Source: Euzebyales bacterium
GTDB taxonomy: Bacteria > Actinomycetota > Nitriliruptoria > Euzebyales > JAHELV01
Direction of reading: 5' to 3'
Length of the DNA: 64,000 nucleotides
NCBI GenBank assembly: GCA_035461305.1
Contig: DATHVN010000157.1
Coordinates: 2,271-66,270 of the forward strand
Part shown: in pieces, positions 6,484 to 57,339 of the stretch
How the letters are laid out: each line of letters starts with the position of its first letter
How positions within the stretch are numbered: the first letter of the stretch is position 1
Translations under genes and position numbers: made by a program
Notes under the pieces: model-generated
Seen by the model: the letters and a program-made list of their open reading frames with translations, nothing else
Database searches by the model: none
Told to the model about the DNA's origin: nothing

Positions 6484-6595
6484 GTGCTCGACTCGATGGG
6501 CCGGCGGCGGATCGTATGGTCGGCACGGGGACCACCGCGCCTTCTGATCTGGTGGTCTATCCGCAGCGCGAGGCCAACAAACTTCGCGGGACCTT

Positions 6596-6745
6596 GTTCC
6601 GCGAACGGCTGGTGGACCGGCTCCGCCGGACAGTGACTCCCGGGGCCTGGTTCCGCGAACGGCTGGAGGACCGGCTCCGCCGGACAGTGACTTCGTGGGC
6701 CCGGTTCGCGCGACCAGAGGAGCGGCTCCGTCGCACACCGACGTC
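6596..6745. repeat. 54-bp tandem repeat, 2 full copies plus 1 degenerate copy
   Basis: Copies at 6596-6649 and 6650-6703 differ at about 5 of 54 positions. A degenerate third copy starts at 6704. Each unit begins GTTCCGCGAAC and contains CCGGC-TCC-GCCGG. Confidence 0.8.
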
Positions 6746-14330: not shown

Positions 14331-14678
14331 CTAGTAGTAGTCGCGGTGATAGCGGATGCCGCCCGCGTCGACCTCGACCCAGCTGCTGCGCGGCAGGTTC
14401 GACCAGCGCCGGCCGGCTGCGGTGTAGCTCATGGTCCACTCGACGGCGAGCGTCGAGCCATCCTCGGATTCGAGCATGCGCTCGACGTTGATGTCGAGGT
14501 CCTCGCGGGCCTGCATCCACGAGTTCAGGTAGGAGCGGATGAGCGTCCGGCCCTCGTGTGGTGGGTTGTTGGGCTCGAGGAAGATCGACTCGACCGCGTA
14601 CAGCTCGGCGACGGCGGTGTCGTCATCCTTCTCCATCGCAGCGCTGAGCTGCTCCCACAGTTCTCGTGCTCGACCCAT
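14331..14678 (-). CDS. SnoaL-like / NTF2-fold protein
   Basis: 115 aa. The pattern ELYAVESIFLEPNNPPHEGRTLIRSYL...WVEVDAGGIRYHRDYY is typical of SnoaL-like polyketide-cyclase-fold proteins. Confidence 0.7.
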   Translation of the reverse strand: MGRARELWEQLSAAMEKDDDTAVAELYAVESIFLEPNNPPHEGRTLIRSYLNSWMQAREDLDINVERMLESEDGSTLAVEWTMSYTAAGRRWSNLPRSSWVEVDAGGIRYHRDYY

Positions 14679-17603: not shown

Positions 17604-18317
17604 CTAGGTGCCGGTGTCCGCCTCGGAGGGGGGGACGCTGCCACGCTTGGCCGCGGCGGGGTCGCGCGAGCGTCCCCGAGGGATGCGCTCGCGACCGTCG
17701 GAGCCGGGGCGCGTGCGCTCGGCGCCGTCGGAGTCGGGGCGCGTCCGCTCGGCGCCGTCGGAGCCGGGGCGCGTCCGCTCGGCGCCGTCGGAGCCGGAGC
17801 GCGTCCGCGGCGCCCGGGACCGGCCGCTGGCCCGAGTCCGGTCGGGCCGTTGGCGGACCGCGGGCCGTTCCGGGTGCTCGGTGGCCGGCGTCCGGGGCGC
17901 CTCGGGGCTGTTCGGGCTCCGCCGTGCCGAGGACGGCGCCGCGTCGTTCGTGCCGTCCGTCGACGGCGGCGCGGCTGTCGGCTGCTCGGCGGCCAGCGGT
18001 GGGGCCACCGTGTCGGACCGCACCGGCGGCGCCGGCTGCACCCGTGACGCCTGCAGGCTGCGCAGCACCCCGAGGGCGATGCCGGCGAGCAGCGCGTAGC
18101 CGAGCACGCCGATGAGGGTGGTGAGCACGAAGTCCTGCTCACCGAACATGCCCTGGAAGGGCACGAGGAACACGACCGAGAGACCCCGGACGAAGGCGAC
18201 GATGATGTTGTCCTCGTTGGCTTCGAGCAGCCGGAACAGCGCGTCGAACGCCAGGACCCCGACGATGAACACGAGCAGCGTGTTGATCCAGCGGCCGACA
18301 CTATCCCAGTAATTCAT
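17604..18317 (-). CDS. Membrane protein with Arg/Asp-rich repetitive C-terminal tail
   Basis: Start taken at MNYWDSVGRW (18317). Two or three TM helices, then a Pro/Ala-rich linker and GAERTRPGSD repeats. Confidence 0.6.
   Translation of the reverse strand: MNYWDSVGRWINTLLVFIVGVLAFDALFRLLEANEDNIIVAFVRGLSVVFLVPFQGMFGEQDFVLTTLIGVLGYALLAGIALGVLRSLQASRVQPAPPVRSDTVAPPLAAEQPTAAPPSTDGTNDAAPSSARRSPNSPEAPRTPATEHPERPAVRQRPDRTRASGRSRAPRTRSGSDGAERTRPGSDGAERTRPDSDGAERTRPGSDGRERIPRGRSRDPAAAKRGSVPPSEADTGT
17667..17816. repeat. 30-bp in-frame tandem repeat (3 near-perfect copies flanked by 2 degenerate copies)
   Basis: Units at 17697-17726, 17727-17756 and 17757-17786 differ by 1-2 nt and encode GAERTRP(G/D)SD. 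Confidence 0.85.
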
Positions 18318-18401
18318 CGAGGCTCCTTGGCGCGCCCCCGGTGACTCGCACGGTTGCTGCGAATCCCAAGGGTAGTCGGTTTGACACCGATGCGACACGC
18401 C

Positions 18402-23971: not shown

Positions 23972-25798
23972 GTGCCAAGGGGGCGCACCGATGCGGAGAT
24001 CCTTCTTCGTCTGCGGAGATCCTTGTTCGTCTGTTGTCTCGTGGTCGCGATGCTCGCGGCCCTCGTGCCCGTCGCCGCGGCGGCGCCGGGCGGGAGGGAC
24101 CGCGCGCCGCACAAGGATCCCGTCGCCACCGGCCGCGGCGGTGCGGTCTCGACCGTCGACCCCGTCGCGACCGAGGCGGGCCTGGAGGTGTTGCGCAACG
24201 GAGGCAACGCCGTGGATGCGGCGGTCGCCGCCGCAGCGACGCTGGGCGTGACCGAGCCGTACTCTGCCGGCATCGGCGGTGGCGGCTTCATGCTGATCCG
24301 CCTCGCCGAAACGGACGAGATCGTCGTCATCGACGGTCGCGAGGAGGGTCCCGACGACATCGGTTCGACGTCGACGTGTTCGCGCCGTACGCCAGTGATT
24401 TCTTCGACGCCGTCAACAGCGGTCTCTCAGTGGGCGTTCCCGGCACGCTCGCCACGTGGGTGGCGGCACTCGACCACTACGGGACGATCTCGCTGAAGCA
24501 GGCGCTGCGGCCCGGCATCAGGGCAGCACAGAATGGCTTCGTGGTCGACGAGACCTACGCCGAACAGACCGCCGGCAACCTCGAGCGGTTCCGGCAGATC
24601 ACGCCGACGGCCGAGACCTACCTCGTCGACGGCGAGGTGCCTCAGGTCGGCAGCCGGGTGCGCAACCGAGATCTGGCCCGGACCTACCGCGAGCTCTCGC
24701 GGCGCGGACCGGAGTGGCTCTACGGCGGCGACCTGGGCGAGGAGGTCGTCGACGCCGTCCAGAACCCGCCGACCGCCAACGAGACCCTCGAGGAGTGGCA
24801 GCCGGGCTACATGGACATCTGGGATCTGGCCAGCTACGAGGTGCAGTACCTCGCGCCGACCGAGGTCGACTTCCTCGGCTACCGGGTGTTCGGCATGCCG
24901 TCACCGTCGAGCGGCGGCATCACGGTCGGCGAGACGCTGAACATCATGGAGGACGGCACGTGGTCGGACCCGTCCGGCTTCTACCACCTGTTCCTCGAGG
25001 CGACGGCGCACGCCTTCGCCGACCGCAACGCCTACATCGGCGACGACCGGGTACGTCTATGTGCCGGAGGACGGCCTGCTGTCGGAGGAGTTCGCCTCCG
25101 AACGCTTCGCGCAGATCGACCCGACCAGCGCCAGCGTGAAGCCAGTGGCACCGGGAGATCCGTGCGACGAGGACGGCGGCACCAACTGCCTGCCCGATCC
25201 GAACGCCGTGGACGCGGCCGAGGGCGAGTCCACGACACACCTCGTGACGGCCGACCGCTGGGGCAACGTGGTCAGCTACACGTTGACCATCGAGCAGACG
25301 GGCGGTAGCGCGATCACCGTGCCCGACCGCGGGTTCCTGCTCAACAACGAGCTGACCGACTTCAACTTCACCGGTCCGAGCCCGAACCTGCCCGCGCCCG
25401 GCAAACGGCCACGGTCGAGCATGAGCCCGACCATCGTGCTCGACGACGGTGACCCGGTGCTGGCCGTCGGCACGCCCGGTGGATCGACGACCATCACGAC
25501 CGTCGCCCGGATCCTGGCCAACCGGCTGGGACGTGACATGCCGCTGCCCGAGGCGGTGGAGGAGCCCCGGGCGACGCAGCGCAACACACCGCAGGTGAGG
25601 CCCGAGCCGGCGTTCGTCGAGGCGTACGGCGCGGAGCTCGAAGCGCTCGGCCACGTGTTCGAGGACCCGCCGACCCAGGAGCTCGGCGCGGCAACGGCGA
25701 TCGAGCTGCTCGGCCCCGGCCGCTTCCTCGCCGTCGCCGAGGCGGTGCGGCGCGGTGGTGGTGACGCCGGCGTCGTCCGGCAGCATCGGGGACGCTGA
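23972..25798 (+). pseudogene. ggt: Gamma-glutamyltransferase with start-region duplication and two frameshifts
   Basis: GGT sequence is spread over ORFs 23972..24496, 23884..25308 and 25061..25798. Frame breaks lie near 24362 and 25048. The catalytic TTH (ESTTHLVTAD) and GGSTTIT motifs are present. Confidence 0.75.
23993..24032. repeat. 20-bp tandem duplication overlapping the last base of the native ggt ATG
   Basis: GCGGAGATCCTTCTTCGTCT (23993-24012) and GCGGAGATCCTTGTTCGTCT (24013-24032). Removing one copy restores ATG-CGG-AGA... = MRRSLFVCCLVVAMLAALVPVAAAAP. Confidence 0.85.
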
Positions 25799-25949: not shown

Positions 25950-27110
25950 ATGGCACGCACGAGGGACCAGCTGACGACCCGAGACCCCGACCTGACGAGC
26001 TCCTGGCCGCAGGTCTGCGGGTGGCGGCTGGCGCGCCAGCACGTCACCGCACTGGCCGCCGACGCGGTAGGGGTCGCGTCCCGGCTGTGCGGCGTGCAGG
26101 CCCAGGTCACGTCGTCGGCGCACTTCGCCGTCGGGGTGCGCTCACCAGCGACCGACGACGACGTCGACGCCGCACTGTGGACCGAGCGCACGCTGGTCCG
26201 CACGTGGGCGATGCGCGGGACACTGCACTGGCTGCCCGCCGCCGAGTACGGCCTGTGGATCGCAGCGTTGACCACCCGGCGGTGGCGGATCACGCCGTCA
26301 TGGGAGAAGTACCACGGCGTCACGGCCGCCGAGCTCGATGCGGTCACCAGGGCCATTCCCGAGGTGCTCGCAGGACGGCGGCTGACGCGCGAGGAGCTGG
26401 CCGACGGGCTCGCCGACGCGACCGGCCGGGCCCATCTCGCGGAGCAGCTGACGTCCGGCTGGGGCGCAGTGCTCAAGCCTGCGGCGAACCGCGGGCTGCT
26501 GTGCTTCGGTCCCGACCGGGACCGCAACATCACCTTCGTGCGTCCCGACGAGTGGCTCGGCGACACGGGCCCCGCACCGAAGCCGGAGGAGGCCATGCGG
26601 CTCGTGCTGCGGCGGTTCCTCGATGCCTACGGTCCGGCGACCCCCGGCGACATCGCGCGATGGTTCGGCGAGCGCGAGCCGTTCGGGCGGCAGCTGCTCG
26701 CACGCCACGCCGAGGAGCTGGCGGTCGTCCGCGTCGACGGCCACCGGGGCTGGATGACGCCCGAGGGCGCCACCGCGTTGGCGGAGCACGCCCCGGCAGA
26801 GGGCGTGGCGCTGCTCGGCGGGTTCGACCCATACGTGCTGGCCCCGATCAGCCATCGCGTCGCCATCGTCCCCGACGGTCGGCTCGACGAGGTGTCGCGC
26901 ACCGCCGGATGGATCTCGGCCGTTGTCCTGGTCGACGGGATGGTCGCGGGCACCTGGACCACCGAGGCCGACGGCGACGCGACCCGGCTCGTGATCTCGC
27001 CGTTCCGGGGGCTGACCGCCACCGAGCGGGCTGCGATCGACCAGCGTGTCGCGCAGCTCGCCGGACACGTGCTCCCCGCGGGAGCCCGGGCGACGGTCGC
27101 GCGCACCTGA
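25950..27110 (+). CDS. Winged-helix DUF1006 protein (YcaQ/AlkZ-family DNA glycosylase-like)
   Basis: Internal ATG 25950. LCGVQAQV (Q-x-Q), TLVRTWAMRGTLHW and GGFDPYVL are typical of the family. Confidence 0.75.
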   Translation: MARTRDQLTTRDPDLTSSWPQVCGWRLARQHVTALAADAVGVASRLCGVQAQVTSSAHFAVGVRSPATDDDVDAALWTERTLVRTWAMRGTLHWLPAAEYGLWIAALTTRRWRITPSWEKYHGVTAAELDAVTRAIPEVLAGRRLTREELADGLADATGRAHLAEQLTSGWGAVLKPAANRGLLCFGPDRDRNITFVRPDEWLGDTGPAPKPEEAMRLVLRRFLDAYGPATPGDIARWFGEREPFGRQLLARHAEELAVVRVDGHRGWMTPEGATALAEHAPAEGVALLGGFDPYVLAPISHRVAIVPDGRLDEVSRTAGWISAVVLVDGMVAGTWTTEADGDATRLVISPFRGLTATERAAIDQRVAQLAGHVLPAGARATVART

Positions 27111-27120
27111 CTCCCATCGG

Positions 27121-27209
27121 CGTGGCAACCCGCCACGGCATCCCGGCACCAGCCGCCACACACCCACGACCGTGGCAACCCACCACGGCATCCCGGCACC
27201 GGCTGCCAC
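27121..27209. repeat. 39-bp direct repeat x2 (50-bp period) upstream of tRNA-Sec
   Basis: CGTGGCAACCCGCCACGGCATCCCGGCACCAGCCGCCAC (27121-27159) and CGTGGCAACCCACCACGGCATCCCGGCACCGGCTGCCAC (27171-27209). They differ at 4 positions. Confidence 0.8.
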
Positions 27210-27244
27210 GCGGAACGCGTGTGGGCACCGGTAGGGTTGCGGGC

Positions 27245-27337
27245 GGAGGCGTCAGGATTCCTGGTGGGTCCCACGGTCTTCAAAACCGATGAACCGGCGC
27301 CAAGCCGGTTGGCGGGTTCGATTCCCGTTCGCCTCCG
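27245..27337 (+). tRNA. selC: tRNA-Sec (anticodon UCA)
   Basis: GGAGGCG...CGCCUCC acceptor (7 bp plus a U-U pair). 6-bp D-stem GGAUUC/GGGUCC. Anticodon loop CUUCAAA with UCA at 27280-27282. Long variable arm AACCGG-7 nt-CCGGUU. T arm GCGGG-UUCGAUU-CCCGU. Discriminator G; CCA is not encoded. Confidence 0.85.
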
Positions 27338-27448
27338 CGACGACCGCCGGACCGTCCCGGCAACCGCCTCGGAACGACCCGACGGTCCGGCCTGCGTCGC
27401 GGCGCGCGGGACGCACGGCTGCACCGCTCCCCAGCCCCGACCCAGGCG

Positions 27449-28486
27449 ATGACCACGGACCTGCTGCCCAAGGATGCCCTGCCGCTGCCCGTCGTCCTCA
27501 CGGCGGGCGCCGCCGTCGTGGTGATCACCGCCGGGCTGCTGTCGGCGCGCGCTGCGACCCGCCCCGACCTGCCAGCCACCCGCTGGCACCGTGACCTGCC
27601 GGCGGCGATGACGGCCACGCTCGACCGCCCCGGGACCCGCCGCGCCACCCGCCTGGTCGCCCTCGCCGGCGCCCTCGCCGGCCTGGTCGGACTGGCCGTG
27701 CACGACGGACCGGTCCAGGGCTCGACGGGTGTTGCGGTGCTCACCGCCGCGGCGCTGGTCGCCGGGCCGCTGGCCCGCATCGTCAACCCGGTGCGCCTGG
27801 CGTGCGGCCCGTCACGGGGCTCCTCGGCCGGCCCCGCGGCCCCCGGCTGGCCCGCCGTCGCCGTGCTCGCCGTGCTGTCGGTCGTCGCGCTGGCCGTCGA
27901 CGACGGACGGATGCTCGCCGCCGTGGGCGCCGGCCACCTGGCCCTGCAGGCCGCGCTGTGCCGTCTCCGTGGGCCGTCCTGGCCCGCCCGCGGTGACGGG
28001 CTCGAGGCCCTGGCCACCCTGATCGGTCGCGCGGCTCCGCTCGGCCGGCGCGCCGATGGCCACCTCGCGTGGCGCAACCCGGTCGTCAACGCCGCGCACG
28101 TCGTCCTTCCACGCCCCGCGCTGTGGCTGACCGCCGTCGTGGTCGGGCTCACCATCGCCGCGACCGCGTCCACGCTGGCCGTCCCGGTGTTCCTGACGGC
28201 GACGGCGACGGCCGGCGTGCTGCTGCGCGTCGGCCTCATACGTCCGTGGCTGTTCGGCGTCGTCGCACCGCTCGCGGCGGCGTACGGCCTGCTCGCGGGG
28301 GGCCGGTGGCTTCAGCCGGTGGACCTGATGGCCTTCGTGGCGCTGCACGCCGCGGCCACCGCCGTCCTGCACCGCCAGGCGATCGCCCGCCACGACCCGC
28401 GGACCGCCCGCGCCGTGCAGTTCCCTGCGCGCTGCGTCGTGGTGGTCTCGGTGCTGGCTGGCCTCGCCGTCCTCGCTTCCGCGTGA
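27449..28486 (+). CDS. Hypothetical polytopic membrane protein
   Basis: 345-aa Ala/Leu/Val-rich ORF with about 8 hydrophobic segments. No recognisable motif. Confidence 0.5.
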   Translation: MTTDLLPKDALPLPVVLTAGAAVVVITAGLLSARAATRPDLPATRWHRDLPAAMTATLDRPGTRRATRLVALAGALAGLVGLAVHDGPVQGSTGVAVLTAAALVAGPLARIVNPVRLACGPSRGSSAGPAAPGWPAVAVLAVLSVVALAVDDGRMLAAVGAGHLALQAALCRLRGPSWPARGDGLEALATLIGRAAPLGRRADGHLAWRNPVVNAAHVVLPRPALWLTAVVVGLTIAATASTLAVPVFLTATATAGVLLRVGLIRPWLFGVVAPLAAAYGLLAGGRWLQPVDLMAFVALHAAATAVLHRQAIARHDPRTARAVQFPARCVVVVSVLAGLAVLASA

Positions 28487-34955: not shown

Positions 34956-35069
34956 CGGGGCATCGTAGTAGTAACGCTGGGACCATTAATTCAACCTCTG
35001 TTGACTTAGTCACGTGGCTCGCGAGCTCGCTACGCTCCAACGGCCCAGGGAGCCTACTGGCCCAAGTTC

Positions 35070-36088
35070 TTGGGGGCCGACATGGACACGATCCGGAACA
35101 CATGCTGCGTCGCCGGCTGCGGGCCGGCAGGCGCCGTGCTCGGCCTGCTGCTCGCCCGCGCGGGCGTGAACGTCGTCGTGCTCGAGAAGCACGCCGACTT
35201 CCGCCGGATCCCCGACGGCCACACGCTCGGCTTCCTACCACGGTGGGACTTCCTGGACTTCGTCACGCGCCACGCCGAGCGCCTCCCGACGTTCACGCTC
35301 CGCCGGCGCACCGAGGTCACCGGCCTCCTCGGCGACGGTCGCCGGGTCACCGGTGTCCGCGCGCGCACGGCCGACGGCGGGGACGTGGAGGTCGTGGCCG
35401 ACCTGGTGGTCGCGTGTGACGGCCGCGACTCGGTGGCGACGCGTCAGGCCTGCCGCTCGTCGCCCGCGGCGCACCGATCGACGTGCTGTGGTTCCGCCTG
35501 CCACGCGCCGACGGCGATCCTGACAATGCGTTCGGCCGGCTGTCCCGCGGTCAGCTGCGGGTGATGATCGACCGCGGCATGCACTGGCAGGTCGGGTATG
35601 TGATCCCCAAGGACGGCTACGAGGAGGTGCGGACTGGCGGACTGCCGCGGTTCCGCGCGCGCATCGCCGACCTCGCGCCCTTCGTGCGCGGACGTGTTGA
35701 TGCGATCGACGACTGGGACGACATCGCGCTGCTGCGCGTGCAGCTCAACCGCCTGCGCCGGTGGTGGCGGCCGGGCCTGCTGTGCATCGGCGACGCCGCG
35801 CACGCGATGTCGCCGGTCGGTGGCGTCGGCATCAACCTCGCCGTACAGGACGCCGTCGCCGCGGCACGCATCACCGCGGACCCGCTCCGACGGGGCGCGC
35901 TGTCACCCGCGCACCTGGCCCGGGTGCAGCTGCGGCGGGCGCTGCCAACCGTCCTGACCCAGCTGGGACAGCAGATCGTCCACGATCGGGTGCTCGGCCC
36001 ACTGGTCCGCGGCCGCAGTGGCCCCGGCACGCCAGCGCTGATACGCCTCCTGGACCGGTACCCGGCGCTGCGCGCTGTGCCGGCGTAG
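35070..36088 (+). pseudogene. FAD-dependent monooxygenase with a frameshift and a probable internal deletion
   Basis: GxGxxG (CVAGCGPAGAVLGLLLA) lies in ORF 35070..35564. The rest (GAPIDVLWFRLPR...LLCIGDAAHAMSPVGGVGINLAVQDA) lies in ORF 35483..36088, in another frame. The break is near 35450. Confidence 0.65.
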
Positions 36089-42152: not shown

Positions 42153-43433
42153 ATGGACCTCGCCCAGGATCTGCTGCGCTTCGTCGCGGCGGGCCCCTCG
42201 CCGTACCACGCCGTCGCCGAGATGGCCCGCCGCCTCGAGGCGGCCGGGTTCCAGCAGCTCCGCGAGGAGGACCTGTGGTCGCTGGCAGCCGGCGACCGCC
42301 GCTATGTCGTCCGTGACGGCGGCAGCATCATCGCCGTGCGCGTGGGCCGGCAGCCCTGCGCGGACGCCGGGCTGCGCCTGGTCGGCACCCACACCGACAG
42401 CCCGACGCTGAAGGTCCGGCCCACCGAGGACGTCCGGCGGCACGGTTACGCCCAGGTCGGTGTCGAGCCGTACGGCGGGCTGCTGGCCCACACCTGGCTC
42501 GACCGGGACCTCACCCTCGCGGGGCGCCTCGCCGTGCTCGACGGCGGCGCCCTCACCACCCGGTTGGTCCACCTCGAGCGGCCCGTGCTGCGAATCCCCT
42601 CCCTGGCGATCCACCTGTTCCGCGAACTGCGCGAGACGGGCCTCAAGCTCGACCCACAGCGTGACCTGGTGCCCGTGCTGGGCGCGTCCGACGCGCCGGC
42701 AGTGCGCAGTATCGTGGCCGAGGCGGCTGGCGTCGACGCCGCCATGGTGGTCGGCCACGATCTGGTGACGGCCGACACCCAGCCGCCCGCGCTCGGTGGC
42801 ATCGACGGCACGGCGATCCACGCCCCGCGGCTGGACAACCTCGCGTCGTGCCACGCGGCGCTGCACGCCCTGTGCATCGCCGAGGACGCCGACGCCACCC
42901 AGGTCGTGGTCGCCAACGACCACGAGGAGGTCGGCAGCGGCACCGCCGAGGGCGCGCGGGGGTCCTTCCTCGAGGACACGGTCACCCGGATCGTGACGCT
43001 CGTCGACGGCGACGACCCGCAGGCGCGTGCGAGAGCGCTGGCGCGGTCGCTGCTGGTGTCGGCGGACATGGCGCACGCCGTGCACCCGAACCACGCGGAC
43101 CGGCACGAGGCGCAGCACCGGCCCCGCCTTGGCGGTGGCCCGGTGCTCAAGCTCAACGCCAACCAGTCCTACGCCTCCGACGCGGGATCGATCGGCTGGC
43201 TGACCGCACGGGCCCGTGACGTCCGCGTGACCCTCCAGCACTTCGTCGTCCGCGCGGACCTGCCGTGCGGCTCGACGATCGGCCCGCTGACAGCGACACG
43301 GCTGGGGATCCAGACGGTCGACGTCGGCAACCCGACGCTGTCGATGCACTCCTGCCGCGAGCAGGCGAGCGCCATGGATGTCGCGCCGCTCGTGGGGTTG
43401 CTCGGCGCCCACCTGGCAGCGCCGGCCGGCTGA
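42153..43433 (+). CDS. M18-family aspartyl aminopeptidase
   Basis: Start MDLAQDLLRFVAAGPSPYHAV. GTHTDSP, DNLASCH, DHEEVGS and SADMAHAVHPN. Confidence 0.85.
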   Translation: MDLAQDLLRFVAAGPSPYHAVAEMARRLEAAGFQQLREEDLWSLAAGDRRYVVRDGGSIIAVRVGRQPCADAGLRLVGTHTDSPTLKVRPTEDVRRHGYAQVGVEPYGGLLAHTWLDRDLTLAGRLAVLDGGALTTRLVHLERPVLRIPSLAIHLFRELRETGLKLDPQRDLVPVLGASDAPAVRSIVAEAAGVDAAMVVGHDLVTADTQPPALGGIDGTAIHAPRLDNLASCHAALHALCIAEDADATQVVVANDHEEVGSGTAEGARGSFLEDTVTRIVTLVDGDDPQARARALARSLLVSADMAHAVHPNHADRHEAQHRPRLGGGPVLKLNANQSYASDAGSIGWLTARARDVRVTLQHFVVRADLPCGSTIGPLTATRLGIQTVDVGNPTLSMHSCREQASAMDVAPLVGLLGAHLAAPAG

Positions 43434-54027: not shown

Positions 54028-54597
54028 TCATCTGGAGAGAGCTTCGAGCCGCGCCTCGAGATCGGCACGCGGGACCGCGCCCAGGACCCGTTCACCGGTG
54101 CCCGCCTCGGCGTCGATGAAGAACCATGCGGGCTGGGCGACCACACCGAACTGCCGCCAGACCTCGCCGTCGACGTCAGCGATGGTGACCATGTCCTCCA
54201 GGCCGTGGCGCGCCACGAAGTCCTGCATGGCCGGGGGCTGGTCCCGGCTCGCGACGCCGATGATCTCGACCCTGTGGTCGTACTGTTGCACCACCTGTGC
54301 AACCTCGGGAGCCTCCCGATTGCACGTCGTTCACCAGGGCGCCCAGAACCAGAGCGCGAGGTCGTCCCCGGCATACTCGGCACCGTCGAGGCTCGTGCCG
54401 TCCACGAGCGTCACGGTGCCGAACGGCGCGGCGGGACCCGCCGACGGTCCGTCCGTGCCGACAGGTTCCGACCGCACCGTGCCGGCGGAGCCTGCGCTGC
54501 CGGTGCTGGACCCGTCGACGGTCGTGTCGACCGTCGCCGACCCCCCGCAGCCGGCCACGAACGCCCCGACGACCAGGAGCAACAGCACTCTTCGCAC
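54028..54597 (-). CDS. TlpA/ResA-like thiol:disulfide oxidoreductase lipoprotein with in-frame UGA (candidate selenocysteine, U-T-T-C active site)
   Basis: ORFs 54331..54684 and 54028..54294 share one frame. The TGA at 54333-54331 sits where the first Cys of W-C-x-x-C belongs (LALWFWAPW-TGA-TTCNREAPEV...). Lipoprotein signal VRRVLLLLVVGAFVAG|C runs from GTG 54597. A SECIS-like hairpin follows the TGA. Confidence 0.7.
54297..54325 (-). promoter_or_regulatory. SECIS-like mRNA hairpin 5 nt downstream of the in-frame UGA
   Basis: mRNA GUGCAA-UCGGG-(AGGCU)-CCCGA-GG-UUGCAC: 11-12 bp with a GG bulge. The G-containing apical loop lies about 20 nt from the UGA. Confidence 0.55.
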
Positions 54598-54706: not shown

Positions 54707-54738
54707 CGTTCTCAGTCGCCGTGTGGGGAGCCCGACCG

Positions 54739-55677
54739 ATGAGCAGAGGCAGCCTGTCCAACGACGAGATGCGGGAGCGCATCGCCGCCGGACGCCTGGT
54801 CGAGGGCGTCGAGCACGCGTCGGAGGACTACCTCAAGGCGCTCGAGCGGACGCTGATCGTCTCCGCGGACACCGAGCTCATCAGCGCCCCCTCGTACCTG
54901 GGCGCGGCCTCCGCCGCCCCGAACGCGTCCAGCTACATGTCGATCGTCTCGATCATCCAGGACGAGGTCGGGCATGCCCACATCGCCTACCGCATGCTGC
55001 GCGACCTTGGCGTCGACGTCGACGAGCTCGTCTACGGGCGTCAGCCCCACGAGTTCAAGCACCCCTACGCCTTCGACGTGCCACTCGAGACCTGGCCCGA
55101 GATGATCGTGGCCAACGCGTTCTACGACCGTGCCGGCTTCGTGCTGCTGTCCGACGTGTTCGAGCACACGACGTTCGCGCCATGGAAGCGGGCGCTGGTC
55201 AAGGTCGACCGCGAGGAGACGTTCCACCTCCGCCACGGCGAGCGGTGGATCGCCAAGCTCTCGCGGGACGACGACGCGAAGCGCAGCATCCAGCAAGCTA
55301 TGGACTGGATGTTCATCCTCACGCTGGAGTGGTTCGGTCTGCCCGACGCGTTGAAGCGCCACACCGACCAGGTCGGCTACAGGCTGAAGGGCAAGACCAA
55401 CGACGAGCTGCGCCAGACGTGGATGTCTGCGGTCGTGCCGTTCTGCATCGAGCACGGCTTCGACGTGCCCGCCCACTTCGACGCCGAGGCGGACCGGTAC
55501 GTGATCGACTGCGCCTTCCCGATGGACTTCGACCCCGAGGCCAAGCAGTGGGACCACGCGAAGGGCGAGATCACCTGGGAGGAGGTCATGACCCGGTGGC
55601 GTGGCCGAGGCCCGGCCAACGAGCGGTTCGTCCGGCAGCTCCAGCGCGGCGTCGACCAGCTGTCGCGGGCGGCGTAG
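54739..55677 (+). CDS. paaA: 1,2-phenylacetyl-CoA epoxidase subunit A-like di-iron oxygenase
   Basis: ATG 54739 (GGGGAG RBS). Di-iron ligand motifs QDEVGHAHIAY and DREETFHLRHGERW. Confidence 0.85.
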   Translation: MSRGSLSNDEMRERIAAGRLVEGVEHASEDYLKALERTLIVSADTELISAPSYLGAASAAPNASSYMSIVSIIQDEVGHAHIAYRMLRDLGVDVDELVYGRQPHEFKHPYAFDVPLETWPEMIVANAFYDRAGFVLLSDVFEHTTFAPWKRALVKVDREETFHLRHGERWIAKLSRDDDAKRSIQQAMDWMFILTLEWFGLPDALKRHTDQVGYRLKGKTNDELRQTWMSAVVPFCIEHGFDVPAHFDAEADRYVIDCAFPMDFDPEAKQWDHAKGEITWEEVMTRWRGRGPANERFVRQLQRGVDQLSRAA

Positions 55678-55680
55678 GCG

Positions 55681-56034
55681 ATGACGGCGGACATGCTGCG
55701 TGACCGGGCGGTCGGGCACTGCGACGGATCGGTCGACCGCCCCACAGTGTGGTCCGCGCTCGAACGGGTCGAGGATCCCGAACTACCGCTTTCGATCGTG
55801 GATCTTGGCCTGGTCCGCCGCCTCGACATCGCGGACGGCGTGGTGGTCGTGGGGCTGACCTACACGTCGCTGGCGTGCCCGTGCGTCGAGATGATCCGCG
55901 AGGACGTCGAGGCGGCGGTCCGCACGGTGTCCGGCGTGCGGTCCGTGCGAGTCGACGACGTCCTCGAACCGTGGTCGCGCAACGACGTGACGCCCGAGGG
56001 ACGCGAGCTGCTGCGCGCCGTGGCGGTGGTCTGA
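55681..56034 (+). CDS. paaD: PaaD/PaaJ-like DUF59 domain protein (N-terminal module only)
   Basis: VWSALERVEDPELPLSIVDLGLVRRLDI...TYTSLACPCVEMIRED. It lacks the C-terminal Cys4 ribbon normally present. Confidence 0.75.
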   Translation: MTADMLRDRAVGHCDGSVDRPTVWSALERVEDPELPLSIVDLGLVRRLDIADGVVVVGLTYTSLACPCVEMIREDVEAAVRTVSGVRSVRVDDVLEPWSRNDVTPEGRELLRAVAVV

Positions 56035-56035
56035 G

Positions 56036-56245
56036 ATGGCGCTGCCAGGGCACGAGGGGATGCGCGCCTACGAGGTGTATGTCCGTCACGACAAGGAGCC
56101 GCAGCTGCACCAGGGGGGCGAGGTCCAGGCGCACAACGACGACGACGCGGTGATCTTCGCCCACACGCTGTACGACGAGCGCCGCTGGCAGGACATGTTC
56201 GTGGTACCCGCGTCCGCCGTTGTCCGCCTGATCGAGCCGGAGTAG
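56036..56245 (+). CDS. paaB: 1,2-phenylacetyl-CoA epoxidase subunit B
   Basis: 69 aa, YEVYVRHDKEPQLHQGGEVQAHNDDDAVIFAHTLYDERRWQDMFVVPASAV. Confidence 0.75.
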   Translation: MALPGHEGMRAYEVYVRHDKEPQLHQGGEVQAHNDDDAVIFAHTLYDERRWQDMFVVPASAVVRLIEPE

Positions 56246-56248
56246 CCA

Positions 56249-56581
56249 ATGGAGTACCTGGTGTTCGGCAGGACCGAGTACGCCGAGCCGCTCGCGCTGG
56301 TCACCACCGTCGAGGCCGCGTCCACGCCGACTGTCGACTACCTGGGCATCGGCGGCGACTGGCTCGAGCTGACGCTCGTGCCTGCCGACGAGATCATCTG
56401 GATCCTGCGCGACGGCGTACCGGTCGGCGGCGATCTGAGGGTGCGGGCGAGCGCCAGCGAGCCGGAGGGCGGGGACCCCAGGGTGCGGGCGAGCGCCAGC
56501 GAGCCGGAGGGCGGGGACCCCAGGGTGCGGGCGAGCGCCAGCGAGCCGGAGGGCGGGGACCAGAGAGAGGCGCTGGCATGA
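56249..56581 (+). CDS. PaaB-like paralogue with a repetitive C-terminal extension
   Basis: EYLVFGRTEYAEPLALVTTVEA...WLELTLVPADEIIWI follows the PaaB pattern. The tail is 3 x (D)xRVRASASEPEGG. The stop overlaps the paaC start (ATGA). Confidence 0.45.
   Translation: MEYLVFGRTEYAEPLALVTTVEAASTPTVDYLGIGGDWLELTLVPADEIIWILRDGVPVGGDLRVRASASEPEGGDPRVRASASEPEGGDPRVRASASEPEGGDQREALA
56432..56557. repeat. 42-bp in-frame tandem repeat x3
   Basis: Copies at 56432-56473, 56474-56515 and 56516-56557. Copies 2 and 3 are identical and copy 1 differs at 3 positions. Confidence 0.9.
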
Positions 56582-57339
56582 CGTCGCCGTACGCCGAGGC
56601 CACCCGCGAGGCCGCGGTCGACGACGGGATCGCCAACCTGATCGGGGTCGTGGCTGACAACAAGTACCACCTGGGGCGCTGGTTGTCGCAGTGGGCGGTG
56701 GGTGCACCCGGCCTCGAGAGCGCGGTTGCCGCGGCGGGCATCGCCCAAGGCCATTTGGGACAGGCCCGCGCGCTGTACCCACTGGTCGACGAGCTGATCG
56801 CCGGCGGGTTCGGCCGTCCCGACGAGGGCCGGACGCGCCGCTACAACATGTCCGCGCTCGACGACCCGTTCGAGACGTGGGCGCAGGCGGTCGCCACGAT
56901 GTTCCTGGTCGATCCCGCACTCGACGTCGTGCTGCGTGCGCTGCACCCACCGTTGGAGGACCAGTCGCGCCGGCTGGACCGTGTGCTCGACGAGTCGCGC
57001 TTCAACATCGAGTTCGCCCGCGGCCGTCTGGTGGAGCTGACCCGACGGTGGGAGCACGGGCGCAGCCACCTGACCGGCCCGCTCGCGTCCGTGCTGCCCG
57101 AAGTGCTGTGCTGGTTCGGGCCCGCTGACGAGGAGGGAGTGCGCATCCTGCGGGAGGCGGGCGTGCTGTCGGCCGACGGCGCGGGCATGCGCAATGCGTA
57201 CCTCGACATCGTCGCCCCCGTGCTGCTCGAGCTCGACTACCACGTCGGTGTGTCGGGGCGACCCGGCGACTGGACCTACGAGGAGCTGCCGTGGCAGGAC
57301 TGGAACCCGCTCCAGCGCCGCCTGGAGACGACGGACTGA
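56578..57339 (+). CDS. paaC: 1,2-phenylacetyl-CoA epoxidase subunit C
   Basis: 253 aa. LIGVVADNKYHLGRWLSQW...GIAQGHLGQARALY is the PaaC/PaaI-type ferritin-like pattern. Confidence 0.8.
   Translation: MTSPYAEATREAAVDDGIANLIGVVADNKYHLGRWLSQWAVGAPGLESAVAAAGIAQGHLGQARALYPLVDELIAGGFGRPDEGRTRRYNMSALDDPFETWAQAVATMFLVDPALDVVLRALHPPLEDQSRRLDRVLDESRFNIEFARGRLVELTRRWEHGRSHLTGPLASVLPEVLCWFGPADEEGVRILREAGVLSADGAGMRNAYLDIVAPVLLELDYHVGVSGRPGDWTYEELPWQDWNPLQRRLETTD

What the first reader, a model, noticed from the sequence alone, without database searches (positions are those of the whole stretch)
27245..27337. tRNA-Sec (selC) present, so the organism is likely a selenocysteine decoder
The 93-nt sequence folds into the bacterial tRNA-Sec form. 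It has anticodon loop CUUCAAA (UCA at 27280-27282), a 6-bp D-stem, a long variable arm with a perfect 6-bp stem (AACCGG/CCGGUU) and T arm GCGGG-UUCGAUU-CCCGU. The gene sits alone, with no selA, selB, selD or formate dehydrogenase in the window. Its presence means in-frame TGA codons in this genome cannot automatically be read as stops. One such case is at 54333-54331.
Basis: partly seen in the sequence, partly recalled or inferred. Interest (0 to 1): 0.7.

Follow-up and report, generated by a model that had tools for sequence, protein, structure and literature searches.

The report
Real selenocysteine tRNA plus its client gene
The window, from an uncultured Euzebyales actinobacterium, carries a genuine selenocysteine tRNA gene and, 27 kb away, a secreted DsbF-like redox lipoprotein whose catalytic cysteine codon is replaced by a conserved UGA with a recoding hairpin, so the organism almost certainly makes selenoproteins; this is ordinary biology that routine annotation has missed.

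Summary
ARAGORN and Rfam (70 bits, threshold 47) both call a 93-nt tRNA-Sec at 27245-27337 (+), with anticodon UCA at 27280-27282. A 26-sequence alignment supports the cloverleaf (98% of cells paired, 14 pairs changed on both sides).

The gene lies at the same place in three related metagenome contigs. There the flanks have diverged, but every change in a tRNA stem keeps the pairing.

The flagged TGA (54333-54331, minus strand) is the first Cys position of the WCxxC motif of a DsbF/DsbE/ResA-like lipoprotein. Eight other assemblies from this clade keep the TGA; 76 other actinobacterial species have TGC or TGT. A conserved hairpin after it meets all four published bacterial SECIS criteria. The downstream half is under purifying selection, and TGA is the normal stop elsewhere in the window.

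The source is a Euzebyales MAG (protein HSJ45889.1). I could not check selA, selB or selD in the rest of the genome.

This is a new member of known kinds (selC; UxxC TlpA-like selenoprotein). Modest interest.

The parts
27245..27337 (+). selC, the tRNA-Sec gene (93 nt to the discriminator G73). Anticodon UCA at 27280-27282; variable-arm stem 27292-27297 / 27305-27310; no encoded CCA.
   Evidence: ARAGORN tRNA-SeC. Rfam RF01852 at 70 bits against a threshold of 47. Cloverleaf 98.1% paired with 14 pairs changed on both sides across 26 sequences. Orthologues at the same syntenic site in L208, L210 and L214.
27232..27237 (+). TAGGGT, a -10-like (TANNNT) box 7 nt upstream of the mature tRNA 5' end. 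Probable selC promoter element (inferred).
   Evidence: The block GGTAGGGTTGCGG is conserved in L208 and L210 while the rest of the spacer has diverged. L214 has TATCGT at the same distance. The E. coli-type sigma-70 scan finds nothing here, so this rests on conservation and on general knowledge of actinobacterial -10 boxes.
27335..27402 (+). GC-rich hairpin that starts at the 3' end of the tRNA. Possible terminator or processing structure (inferred).
   Evidence: Inverted repeat I3. Fold of -44.4 kcal/mol, z -2.5. The relatives have GC-rich hairpins here, but with different sequences.
54028..54597 (-). Selenoprotein gene encoding a DsbF/DsbE/ResA-like (TlpA superfamily) thioredoxin-fold lipoprotein of about 189 aa, with redox motif W-A-P-W-U-T-T-C. 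The start is taken as the GTG of the conserved VRR... N-terminus; an alternative GTG lies at 54588. The lipobox is VAGC.
   Evidence: Readthrough translation. Pfam AhpC-TSA 57.9 bits and Redoxin 55.5 bits, both above threshold. PDB DsbF 3IOS at E 6e-29 and MPT53/DsbE 1LU4 at E 2e-22, with the Sec position aligned to the first Cys of CxxC. Gene callers split the gene at the TGA in all assemblies. dN/dS downstream of the TGA is 0.19-0.39.
54331..54333 (-). In-frame UGA read as selenocysteine (the first position of UxxC).
   Evidence: TGA at the same codon in L001-L005, L007, L008, L009, L012 and L013. TGC or TGT in 76 other actinobacterial species representatives.
54297..54325 (-). Bacterial SECIS-type hairpin GUGCAAUCGGGA-GGC-UCCCGAGGUUGCAC. 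It starts 5 nt after the UGA, and its apical loop lies 17 nt after the UGA.
   Evidence: Fold of -14.8 kcal/mol, z -3.3, 0 of 200 shuffles as stable. Conserved in all nine Sec forms, with only pairing-compatible changes. Built from A/T-ending codons that are rare in this genome: 41% here against 14% elsewhere in the gene. Meets the four criteria of the published bSECIS model (PMC13188914).
27110..27209 (+). Two tandem copies of a 50-nt unit (84% identical) between the AlkZ-like gene's stop and selC. Each copy holds a small hairpin (CGTGGC-AACCC-GCCACG). Function unknown, and it may not belong to selC.
   Evidence: Repeat family D1. There are only these two copies in the window. L210 has a related unit of about 52 nt, also duplicated, at the same place.

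Best explanation
The window comes from a Euzebyales (Actinomycetota) genome that decodes selenocysteine.

selC at 27245-27337 is a free-standing, separately transcribed gene for tRNA-Sec. By the established bacterial pathway, which is inferred here:
- the tRNA is charged with serine by SerRS (long variable arm and G73 as identity elements);
- it is converted to Sec-tRNA by SelA, using selenophosphate made by SelD;
- it is brought by the specialised elongation factor SelB to UGA codons that are followed directly by a SECIS hairpin.

One such client gene lies in the window at 54597-54028 (minus strand). It encodes an exported lipoprotein of the DsbF/DsbE/ResA (TlpA) thiol-disulfide oxidoreductase family. 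The nucleophilic N-terminal Cys of its CxxC motif has been replaced by Sec (UxxC). A 29-nt hairpin five bases after the UGA acts as the SECIS. The selenol should make the protein a more reactive extracytoplasmic thiol-disulfide oxidoreductase.

Shown here: the tRNA and its structure, its conservation, the UGA/Cys alignment, the conserved hairpin, and selection on the downstream reading frame.

Inferred: the presence of selA, selB and selD elsewhere in the genome, actual Sec insertion, and the protein's substrate.
For: tRNA:
- Called by ARAGORN and Rfam. Its Rfam score is in the range of ten other high-GC tRNA-Sec genes, which score 68.6-77.9 bits.
- The explicit cloverleaf is 98.1% paired, against 41-54% in the slid controls, with 14 pairs changed on both sides.
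- It is syntenic in L208, L210 and L214. The stem changes are compensatory (A13-U25 to G-C, A49-U65 to G-C, G67.U85 to G-C) while the flanks have diverged.

Selenoprotein:
- WAPW-TGA-ACG-ACG-TGC aligns with WAPWCxxC of homologues.
- Nine assemblies keep the TGA, including four GTDB species representatives; two of those are labelled Euzebya. 76 other species have Cys codons.
- The hairpin meets all four bSECIS criteria and shows unusual codon choice.
- dN/dS after the TGA is 0.19-0.39.
- TGA ends 30 of 45 window genes, so UGA is not reassigned.
- L004 (Sec-form redoxin) and L210 (selC) come from the same metagenome sample, 3300070347.

Source organism: HSJ45889.1, labelled Euzebyales bacterium.
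Against: - selA, selB and selD were not observed. They are absent from the 64-kb window, whereas many other high-GC bacteria keep them beside selC.
- The rest of the genome could not be searched. A SelA profile search showed no Euzebyales entry among its top 120 rows, which were saturated by Mycobacterium and Amycolatopsis.
- The hairpin shows only one-sided, pairing-compatible changes and no double compensatory change. Part of its conservation comes from the conserved peptide CNREAPEV.
- The assembly has frameshifts in at least two other genes, so its base-level quality is imperfect. The TGA itself, however, is reproduced in independent assemblies.
- There are no expression or protein data.
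Confidence: 0.88

Rival explanations
1. Relic trait. selC is a leftover gene in a genome that has lost selA, selB or selD, and the TGA in the redoxin gene is a true stop, making it a dead or split gene.
For: No sel genes lie within 27 kb upstream or 37 kb downstream of selC. Every automatic annotation treats the TGA as a stop and calls two ORFs. The window holds other disrupted genes: GGT and a FAD monooxygenase.
Against: - The TGA, the reading frame after it and the hairpin are kept in nine assemblies that are 48-78% identical in protein.
- dN/dS after the TGA is as low as before it.
- The untranslated-if-stop segment xTCNREAPEVAQ holds the second redox Cys and is invariant.
- The tRNA shows only compensatory stem changes over the same divergence.
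- A related lineage that does not use Sec has simply TGC (P0001).
Confidence: 0.04
2. The UGA is read through, but not (or not only) as Sec. For example, Cys or Ser could be inserted by a tRNA-Sec-like tRNA with altered identity (the selC*-type tRNA-Cys described by Mukai and colleagues, recalled from memory), or near-cognate Trp or Cys tRNAs could read it when selenium is scarce.
For: Nothing in the data shows which amino acid is inserted. The Sec-specific enzymes were not seen.
Against: The tRNA has the canonical SerRS/SelA-type features: G73, a long variable arm, a 13-layer acceptor/T stack and a 6-bp D-stem. Its Rfam score equals that of tRNA-Sec genes that sit next to selA, selB and selD in other high-GC bacteria. 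A dedicated SECIS-type hairpin is conserved.
Confidence: 0.05
3. Sequencing or assembly artefact. The TGA is a miscalled TGC in an error-prone MAG.
For: The contig carries apparent indel errors: two frame changes in GGT and one in a FAD monooxygenase.
Against: An independent ENA assembly (L007) has the identical TGA and hairpin. So do seven further assemblies from other samples and sequencing projects. The errors seen elsewhere are frameshifts, not substitutions.
Confidence: 0.01

Closest known systems
Bacterial tRNA-Sec (selC; Rfam RF01852), as in E. coli and mycobacteria
   Same: UCA anticodon, 93 nt, 13-layer acceptor/T stack, 6-bp D-stem with a UGGU loop, long variable arm and G73 discriminator. 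The score is well above the family threshold.
   Different: - The 13 layers are made as 7 acceptor pairs plus 6 T pairs (G67.U85) rather than a clean 8/5.
- One nucleotide is bulged in the D-stem and one in the anticodon stem.
- CCA is not encoded, whereas 93% of bacterial selC genes encode it (PMC5330540).
- The gene stands alone instead of beside selA, selB and selD as in many other high-GC loci.
Mycobacterium tuberculosis DsbF (Rv1677, PDB 3IOS) and DsbE/MPT53 (Rv2878c, PDB 1LU4); more distantly Bacillus ResA and Bradyrhizobium TlpA
   Same: Same thioredoxin-fold domain, with the same WFWAPWCxxC...EAP active-site region. The protein is exported or a lipoprotein.
   Different: The first Cys of CxxC is Sec (UTTC). 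The mature N-terminus carries a Gly/Ser/Thr/Ala-rich linker. NCBIfam ResA, DsbE and TlpA models all score below their cut-offs. No cytochrome-maturation genes lie nearby; the neighbours are a phosphofructokinase gene (Pfam PFK) and a paaA-like cluster.
Predicted UxxC selenoproteins of the TlpA-like / thiol-disulfide isomerase-like (cd02966), Prx-like thiol:disulfide oxidoreductase (PF00578) and thiol:disulfide interchange (PF13098) families, listed in Table 1 of PMC13188914
   Same: Thioredoxin-fold, UxxC motif, abundant Cys homologues, and a SECIS directly after the UGA.
   Different: I could not compare sequences with the listed representatives. The present clade is actinobacterial (Euzebyales) and DsbF-like. 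It is not the curated 'ResA-like WAxxUGC' family: NF041054 scores 19.9 bits against a cut-off of 300.
E. coli fdhF SECIS and the consensus bSECIS model
   Same: A stem-loop within the coding region directly after the UGA, with a small apical loop starting with G and the spacing within 16-37 nt.
   Different: There is no sequence similarity to the fdhF element. The loop is a GGC triloop and a 2-nt bulge sits on the 3' side. SelB binding is untested.

Membership tests
Bacterial tRNA-Sec (selC, RF01852) | Covariance-model score at or above the Rfam gathering threshold | tested here: met
   70.0 bits against 47, over the full model 1-91. ARAGORN also calls SeC.
Bacterial tRNA-Sec (selC, RF01852) | Anticodon UCA in a 7-nt loop | tested here: met
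   Loop CUUCAAA, with UCA at 27280-27282.
Bacterial tRNA-Sec (selC, RF01852) | 13-bp acceptor plus T stack (8/5 in bacteria), against 12 in ordinary tRNAs (PMC5330540) | tested here: met
   7 acceptor pairs plus 6 T-arm pairs including 67:85 (G.U here, G-C in 22 of 26 relatives). There are 8 nt between the 5-bp T stem and G73.
Bacterial tRNA-Sec (selC, RF01852) | 6-bp D-stem with a 4-nt loop | tested here: met
   Pairs 11-13 and 15-17 with 22-27, loop UGGU, and one bulged nucleotide. Four of the six pairs show changes on both sides in the alignment.
Bacterial tRNA-Sec (selC, RF01852) | Long variable arm and G73 discriminator (SerRS identity) | tested here: met
   6-bp V-stem plus a 7-nt loop, with all six pairs covarying. 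G at 27337.
Bacterial tRNA-Sec (selC, RF01852) | Serylation by SerRS, conversion by SelA, binding by SelB | not testable with these tools
   Biochemical property.
Sec-decoding trait | selA, selB and selD present in the genome | not testable with these tools
   They are absent from the 64-kb window. The SelA profile search was uninformative. No literature covers this lineage.
Sec-decoding trait | At least one gene with an in-frame UGA aligned to a conserved Cys of homologues, with TGA-containing orthologues in other organisms | tested here: met
   The TGA at 54333-54331 aligns with the first Cys of WCxxC. There are 9 TGA forms against 76 Cys forms.
Bacterial SECIS consensus model (PMC13188914, Fig. 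2A) | Apical loop of 3-9 nt and upper stem of 4-16 bp | tested here: met
   Loop GGC (3 nt); upper stem of 5-6 bp, CGGGA/UCCCG.
Bacterial SECIS consensus model (PMC13188914, Fig. 2A) | G in one of the first two loop positions | tested here: met
   GGC in eight of the nine Sec forms and AGC in L012.
Bacterial SECIS consensus model (PMC13188914, Fig. 2A) | 16-37 nt between the UGA and the apical loop | tested here: met
   17 nt.
Bacterial SECIS consensus model (PMC13188914, Fig. 2A) | MFE of -7.5 kcal/mol or lower | tested here: met
   -14.8 kcal/mol for the 29-nt hairpin; 0 of 200 shuffles are as stable.
TlpA/ResA/DsbE-DsbF thioredoxin-fold oxidoreductases | Redoxin / AhpC-TSA / thioredoxin domain above the Pfam threshold | tested here: met
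   PF00578 57.9 bits (threshold 26), PF08534 55.5 bits (26.6), PF13098 35.5 bits (27). DsbF 3IOS at E 6e-29.
TlpA/ResA/DsbE-DsbF thioredoxin-fold oxidoreductases | WCxxC active site at the start of helix 1 | tested here: met
   WAPW-U-TT-C aligns with WAPWCPTC of DsbF. The first Cys is replaced by the UGA codon.
NCBIfam ResA (NF002854), DsbE (TIGR00385), TlpA (NF047696) | Score above the curated cut-off | tested here: not met
   64.3 against 170, 44.7 against 123, and 23 against 230. It is therefore a relative of these named subfamilies, not a member of any of them.
ResA-like WAxxUGC selenoprotein (NF041054) | Score above the curated cut-off, and a UGC motif | tested here: not met
   19.9 bits against 300. 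The motif here is UTTC, not UGC.

The most novel reading that the evidence does not exclude
Euzebyales and allied uncultured Actinomycetota form a previously unrecorded Sec-using lineage. A selC detached from the sel operon serves an actinobacteria-specific DsbF-type exported lipoprotein that underwent a Cys-to-Sec switch and acquired its own conserved SECIS. This may be a very small selenoproteome that is not built around formate dehydrogenase, unlike most Sec-using actinobacteria surveyed so far.
Probability: 0.3. Interest if true: 0.45.

Novelty: new member of a known kind. Interest (0 to 1): 0.3.

Why it matters
- **Annotation.** In this lineage a TGA cannot be assumed to be a stop. Every assembly examined splits the DsbF-like gene into two hypothetical ORFs and loses its active site.
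- **Distribution of the trait.** It adds Euzebyales, a group of mostly uncultured, saline or alkaline, high-GC actinobacteria, to the lineages with evidence for selenocysteine use. I found no record of this in the searchable literature.
- **Evolution.** It gives a clean natural Cys/Sec pair in the DsbE/DsbF family, which has solved structures from M. tuberculosis. That pair could be used to study what Sec buys an extracytoplasmic thiol-disulfide oxidoreductase.
- **Limits.** None of this changes the understanding of the Sec system itself.

Tried and rejected
- **Hairpin MFE, Sec against Cys forms.** MFE does not discriminate in 72% GC DNA: Cys forms average -18.3 kcal/mol over 48 nt, Sec forms -17.7 to -21.7. 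I relied instead on conservation of the specific hairpin, codon choice and the shuffle test on the 29-nt hairpin.
- **Other in-frame TGAs.** A systematic scan for TGAs with coding signal on both sides gave only antisense-frame artefacts and ordinary gene ends (10327, 34294, 43431, 58242). None is a second selenoprotein candidate.
- **Same-frame neighbouring ORFs.** The junctions at 14333, 55675 and 56243 are TAG, and the one at 43431 is an ordinary gene end.
- **Metagenome scan with a semi-degenerate selC pattern.** It returned about 120 tRNA-Sec genes but no close orthologue. They were useful only for covariation and for showing that sel genes often flank selC elsewhere.
- **Looking up the window's own NCBI contig through P0031.** Not on record.
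- **SelA profile search to find Euzebyales SelA.** The top 120 rows were saturated by Mycobacterium and Amycolatopsis, so it is uninformative.
- **Literature and supplements for Euzebya, Euzebyales or Nitriliruptoria together with Sec.** Nothing found.
- **E. coli-type promoter scan.** No hits. The one 'terminator' it reports, on the minus strand, is just the tRNA variable arm read backwards.
- **selC as an island integration site.** Rejected: the downstream genes are syntenic in relatives, no integrase is present, and GC is flat.

Full report
**Observation**

ARAGORN finds a single tRNA in the 64-kb window: tRNA-SeC at 27245-27338 with anticodon tca. Rfam finds a single family hit in the window: RF01852 tRNA-Sec at 27245-27336, over the full model, at 70.0 bits against a gathering score of 47 (E 2.9e-12). 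The window is about 72% G+C with flat composition.

**Structure of the tRNA**

I collected three syntenic orthologues (L208, L210, L214). I also collected tRNA-Sec genes from high-GC metagenome contigs, found with a semi-degenerate pattern.

On a gap-free alignment of 26 sequences (A3; L214, one nt shorter in the V-loop, was compared separately), an explicit cloverleaf pairs 98.1% of cells, against 41-54% when the partners are slid. Fourteen pairs change on both sides, and 0 of 500 shuffles reach the observed values for four of the five measures (3 of 500 for the count of further pair types). The cloverleaf is:
- 7 acceptor pairs;
- 6 T-arm pairs including 67:85;
- a 6-bp D-stem with one bulge and a UGGU loop;
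- a 6-bp anticodon stem with one bulge;
- a 6-bp variable stem.

The published hallmarks of bacterial tRNA-Sec (PMC5330540) are met:
- length of 90-101 nt;
- a 13-layer acceptor/T stack;
- a 6-bp D-stem;
- a long variable arm;
- the G73 discriminator.

Deviations are minor. The 13th layer is G67.U85 here (G-C in 22 of 26 relatives). A29/A45 do not pair, although A29-U46 with A45 bulged is possible and is conserved in the clade. CCA is not encoded. The Rfam score equals that of the orthologues (70.0 and 70.9 bits) and lies within the range of eight other high-GC tRNA-Sec genes (68.6-77.9 bits).

**Conservation and context of selC**

The gene order is GGT, AlkZ-like, selC, an unannotated multi-pass membrane protein, M20 peptidase, Ser/Thr kinase. 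This order is kept in L208, L210 and L214, where the AlkZ-like protein is 78%, 83% and 62% identical to the window's.

Across these loci the intergenic DNA has diverged, but the tRNA body is nearly invariant. Every stem substitution preserves pairing: A49-U65 to G-C, A13-U25 to G-C, and G67.U85 to G-C. A TANNNT box (TAGGGT at 27232-27237; TATCGT in L214) stays 7 nt upstream of the mature 5' end. I read this as the promoter -10 element, which is an inference. A more distant AlkZ homologue in a different neighbourhood (L213) has no selC.

There is no integrase or compositional break, so selC is not marking an island here.

**Absence of sel genes in the window**

GC3-guided gene calling followed by Pfam scans of about 60 ORFs found no SelA, SelB, SelD or formate dehydrogenase domains.

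As an independent six-frame check I took authentic SelA, SelB and SelD from E. coli K-12 and ran tblastn against the window and all fetched loci. The window gave no hit at E <= 1e-3. The same queries hit genes right next to selC in many other high-GC metagenome loci.

**The in-frame TGA**

On the minus strand, the frame from about 54597 to 54028 reads ...DDLALWFWAPW*TTCNREAPEVAQVV..., with TGA at 54333-54331.

With the stop replaced by Cys:
- the protein matches AhpC-TSA, Redoxin and Thioredoxin Pfam domains above threshold;
- it is closest to ResA, DsbE and TlpA in NCBIfam, though below every cut-off;
- its best solved relatives are M. tuberculosis DsbF (3IOS, E 6e-29) and DsbE/MPT53 (1LU4, E 2e-22), with the stop aligned to the first Cys of WAPWCPTC.

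The N-terminus (VRRVLLLLVVGAFVAGC) is a lipoprotein signal with a lipobox, read directly from the sequence.

A database search found full-length Cys homologues plus three short proteins that end exactly at ...WFWAPW. Their contigs share the window's neighbours, a phosphofructokinase gene (Pfam PFK) and a paaA-like gene. All have TGA at that codon, followed in frame by xTCNREAPEVAQVV and a complete C-terminal half. An ENA contig identical to the window over this gene, including the TGA and hairpin, shows the same (L007).

Among 80 species-representative genomes with a relative of the protein, four have TGA: two uncultured Actinomycetota MAGs and two Euzebya MAGs. The other 76 have TGC or TGT.

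**SECIS**

Five nt after the UGA lies the hairpin GUGCAAUCGGGA-GGC-UCCCGAGGUUGCAC (54325-54297). It folds at -14.8 kcal/mol, with z -3.3 and 0 of 200 shuffles as stable.

It satisfies all four criteria of the consensus bacterial SECIS model (PMC13188914):
- a 3-nt loop with a 5-6-bp upper stem;
- G at the first loop positions;
- 17 nt from the UGA to the loop;
- MFE of -7.5 kcal/mol or lower.

It is conserved in all nine Sec forms. The few changes keep pairing (U.G to C-G, U-A to U.G) or lie in the loop or the bulge; the single exception, L004, turns the closing A-U into A.C, which merely widens the loop.

The hairpin is built from A/T-ending codons (AAT, GCT, GTT, GCA). These make up 41% of hairpin codons, against 14% in the rest of the gene. 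That points to a constraint on the RNA beyond the protein.

Raw MFE does not separate Sec from Cys forms in DNA this GC-rich, and no double compensatory change was seen. The comparative support for the hairpin is therefore good but not conclusive.

**Rivals**

- *True stop or dead gene.* dN/dS after the TGA is 0.19-0.39, similar to before it, and the segment holding the second redox Cys is invariant.
- *Genome-wide reassignment of UGA.* TGA terminates 30 of 45 window genes.
- *Sequencing error.* The TGA recurs in independent assemblies. The window does, however, have frameshifts in GGT (two) and in a FAD monooxygenase.
- *Other candidates.* A scan of all in-frame TGAs found no second candidate in the window.

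**Organism**

The AlkZ-like protein is 100% identical to NCBI HSJ45889.1, 'MAG TPA ... [Euzebyales bacterium]', on an 86.5-kb contig.

I found no paper linking Euzebya, Euzebyales or Nitriliruptoria with selenocysteine. These taxa are also absent from the part of the 2016 bacterial selenium-utilization survey's supplement that is held as text (one file was cut when stored).

**What remains open**

Whether selA, selB and selD exist in this genome is untested. The case for a working Sec system is therefore evolutionary: selC and a UGA+SECIS client are jointly conserved under purifying selection across a clade. Direct evidence is lacking.

**Comparison with known systems, and novelty**

selC is a standard member of RF01852. 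UxxC selenoproteins of TlpA-like, thiol-disulfide isomerase-like and Prx-like families are already listed among predicted prokaryotic selenoproteins (Table 1 of PMC13188914). This protein is not the curated WAxxUGC family.

What is new is limited: the lineage, the DsbF-type lipoprotein as the Sec carrier, and the systematic mis-annotation. I rate it a new member of a known kind, with interest about 0.3.

Noticed in passing
window 24011-25795 (+): The gamma-glutamyltranspeptidase gene is broken into three pieces in two frames, with changes near 24360 and 25051, relative to the intact 593-595-aa orthologues in L208 and L214. L209 also has a split GGT. This is either assembly indel errors or a pseudogene.
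   Followed up: partly
window 35010-36088 (+): A FAD-binding monooxygenase (PF01494) is split between two overlapping frames (35010-35564 and 35420-36088). This is a second apparent frameshift in the contig.
   Followed up: no
window 27110-27209 (+); L210 about 1480-1590: A 50-nt unit is tandemly duplicated (84% identity) between the AlkZ-like stop codon and selC, and each copy holds a small hairpin. L210 has a related unit of about 52 nt, also duplicated, at the same place. L208 has one degenerate copy and L214 none. There are no other copies in the window. Function unknown.
   Followed up: partly
window 56438-56561 (+): A perfect 42-nt x 3 tandem repeat (100% matches) encodes RVRASASEPEGGDP three times at the C-terminus of a small ORF (56246-56581) inside the paaA-like cluster. 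Perfect identity suggests a very recent expansion or an assembly artefact.
   Followed up: no
window 17686-17808 and 6587-6713: Further coding-region tandem repeats: 30 nt x 4.1 (93% matches) in an ORF without a Pfam hit (17604-18401, minus strand), and 54 nt x 2.3 in the N-terminal part of a STAS-domain protein.
   Followed up: no
window 27449-28486 (+): A 345-aa Ala/Leu/Val-rich multi-pass membrane protein with no Pfam or NCBIfam match is always the gene directly downstream of selC in the window, L208, L210 and L214. Any link to selenium is pure speculation.
   Followed up: partly
window 54721-57339 (+), next to the selenoprotein gene: A paaA/paaB/paaC-like multicomponent oxygenase cluster, with an Fe-S assembly (PF01883) protein inserted, lies divergent from the redoxin gene. 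This neighbourhood is conserved in L004 and L007.
   Followed up: no
L099, L166, L108, L178, L186, L103, L148, L131, L189, L203 (metagenome loci): In these high-GC bacteria selC lies directly beside selD, selA and selB, in contrast to the detached selC of the Euzebyales-like clade.
   Followed up: partly
L208 1903-1998 (-): ARAGORN reports a 'tRNA-???' with a 4-base anticodon (gagg) inside a cytochrome P450 gene. It is most likely a false positive.
   Followed up: no
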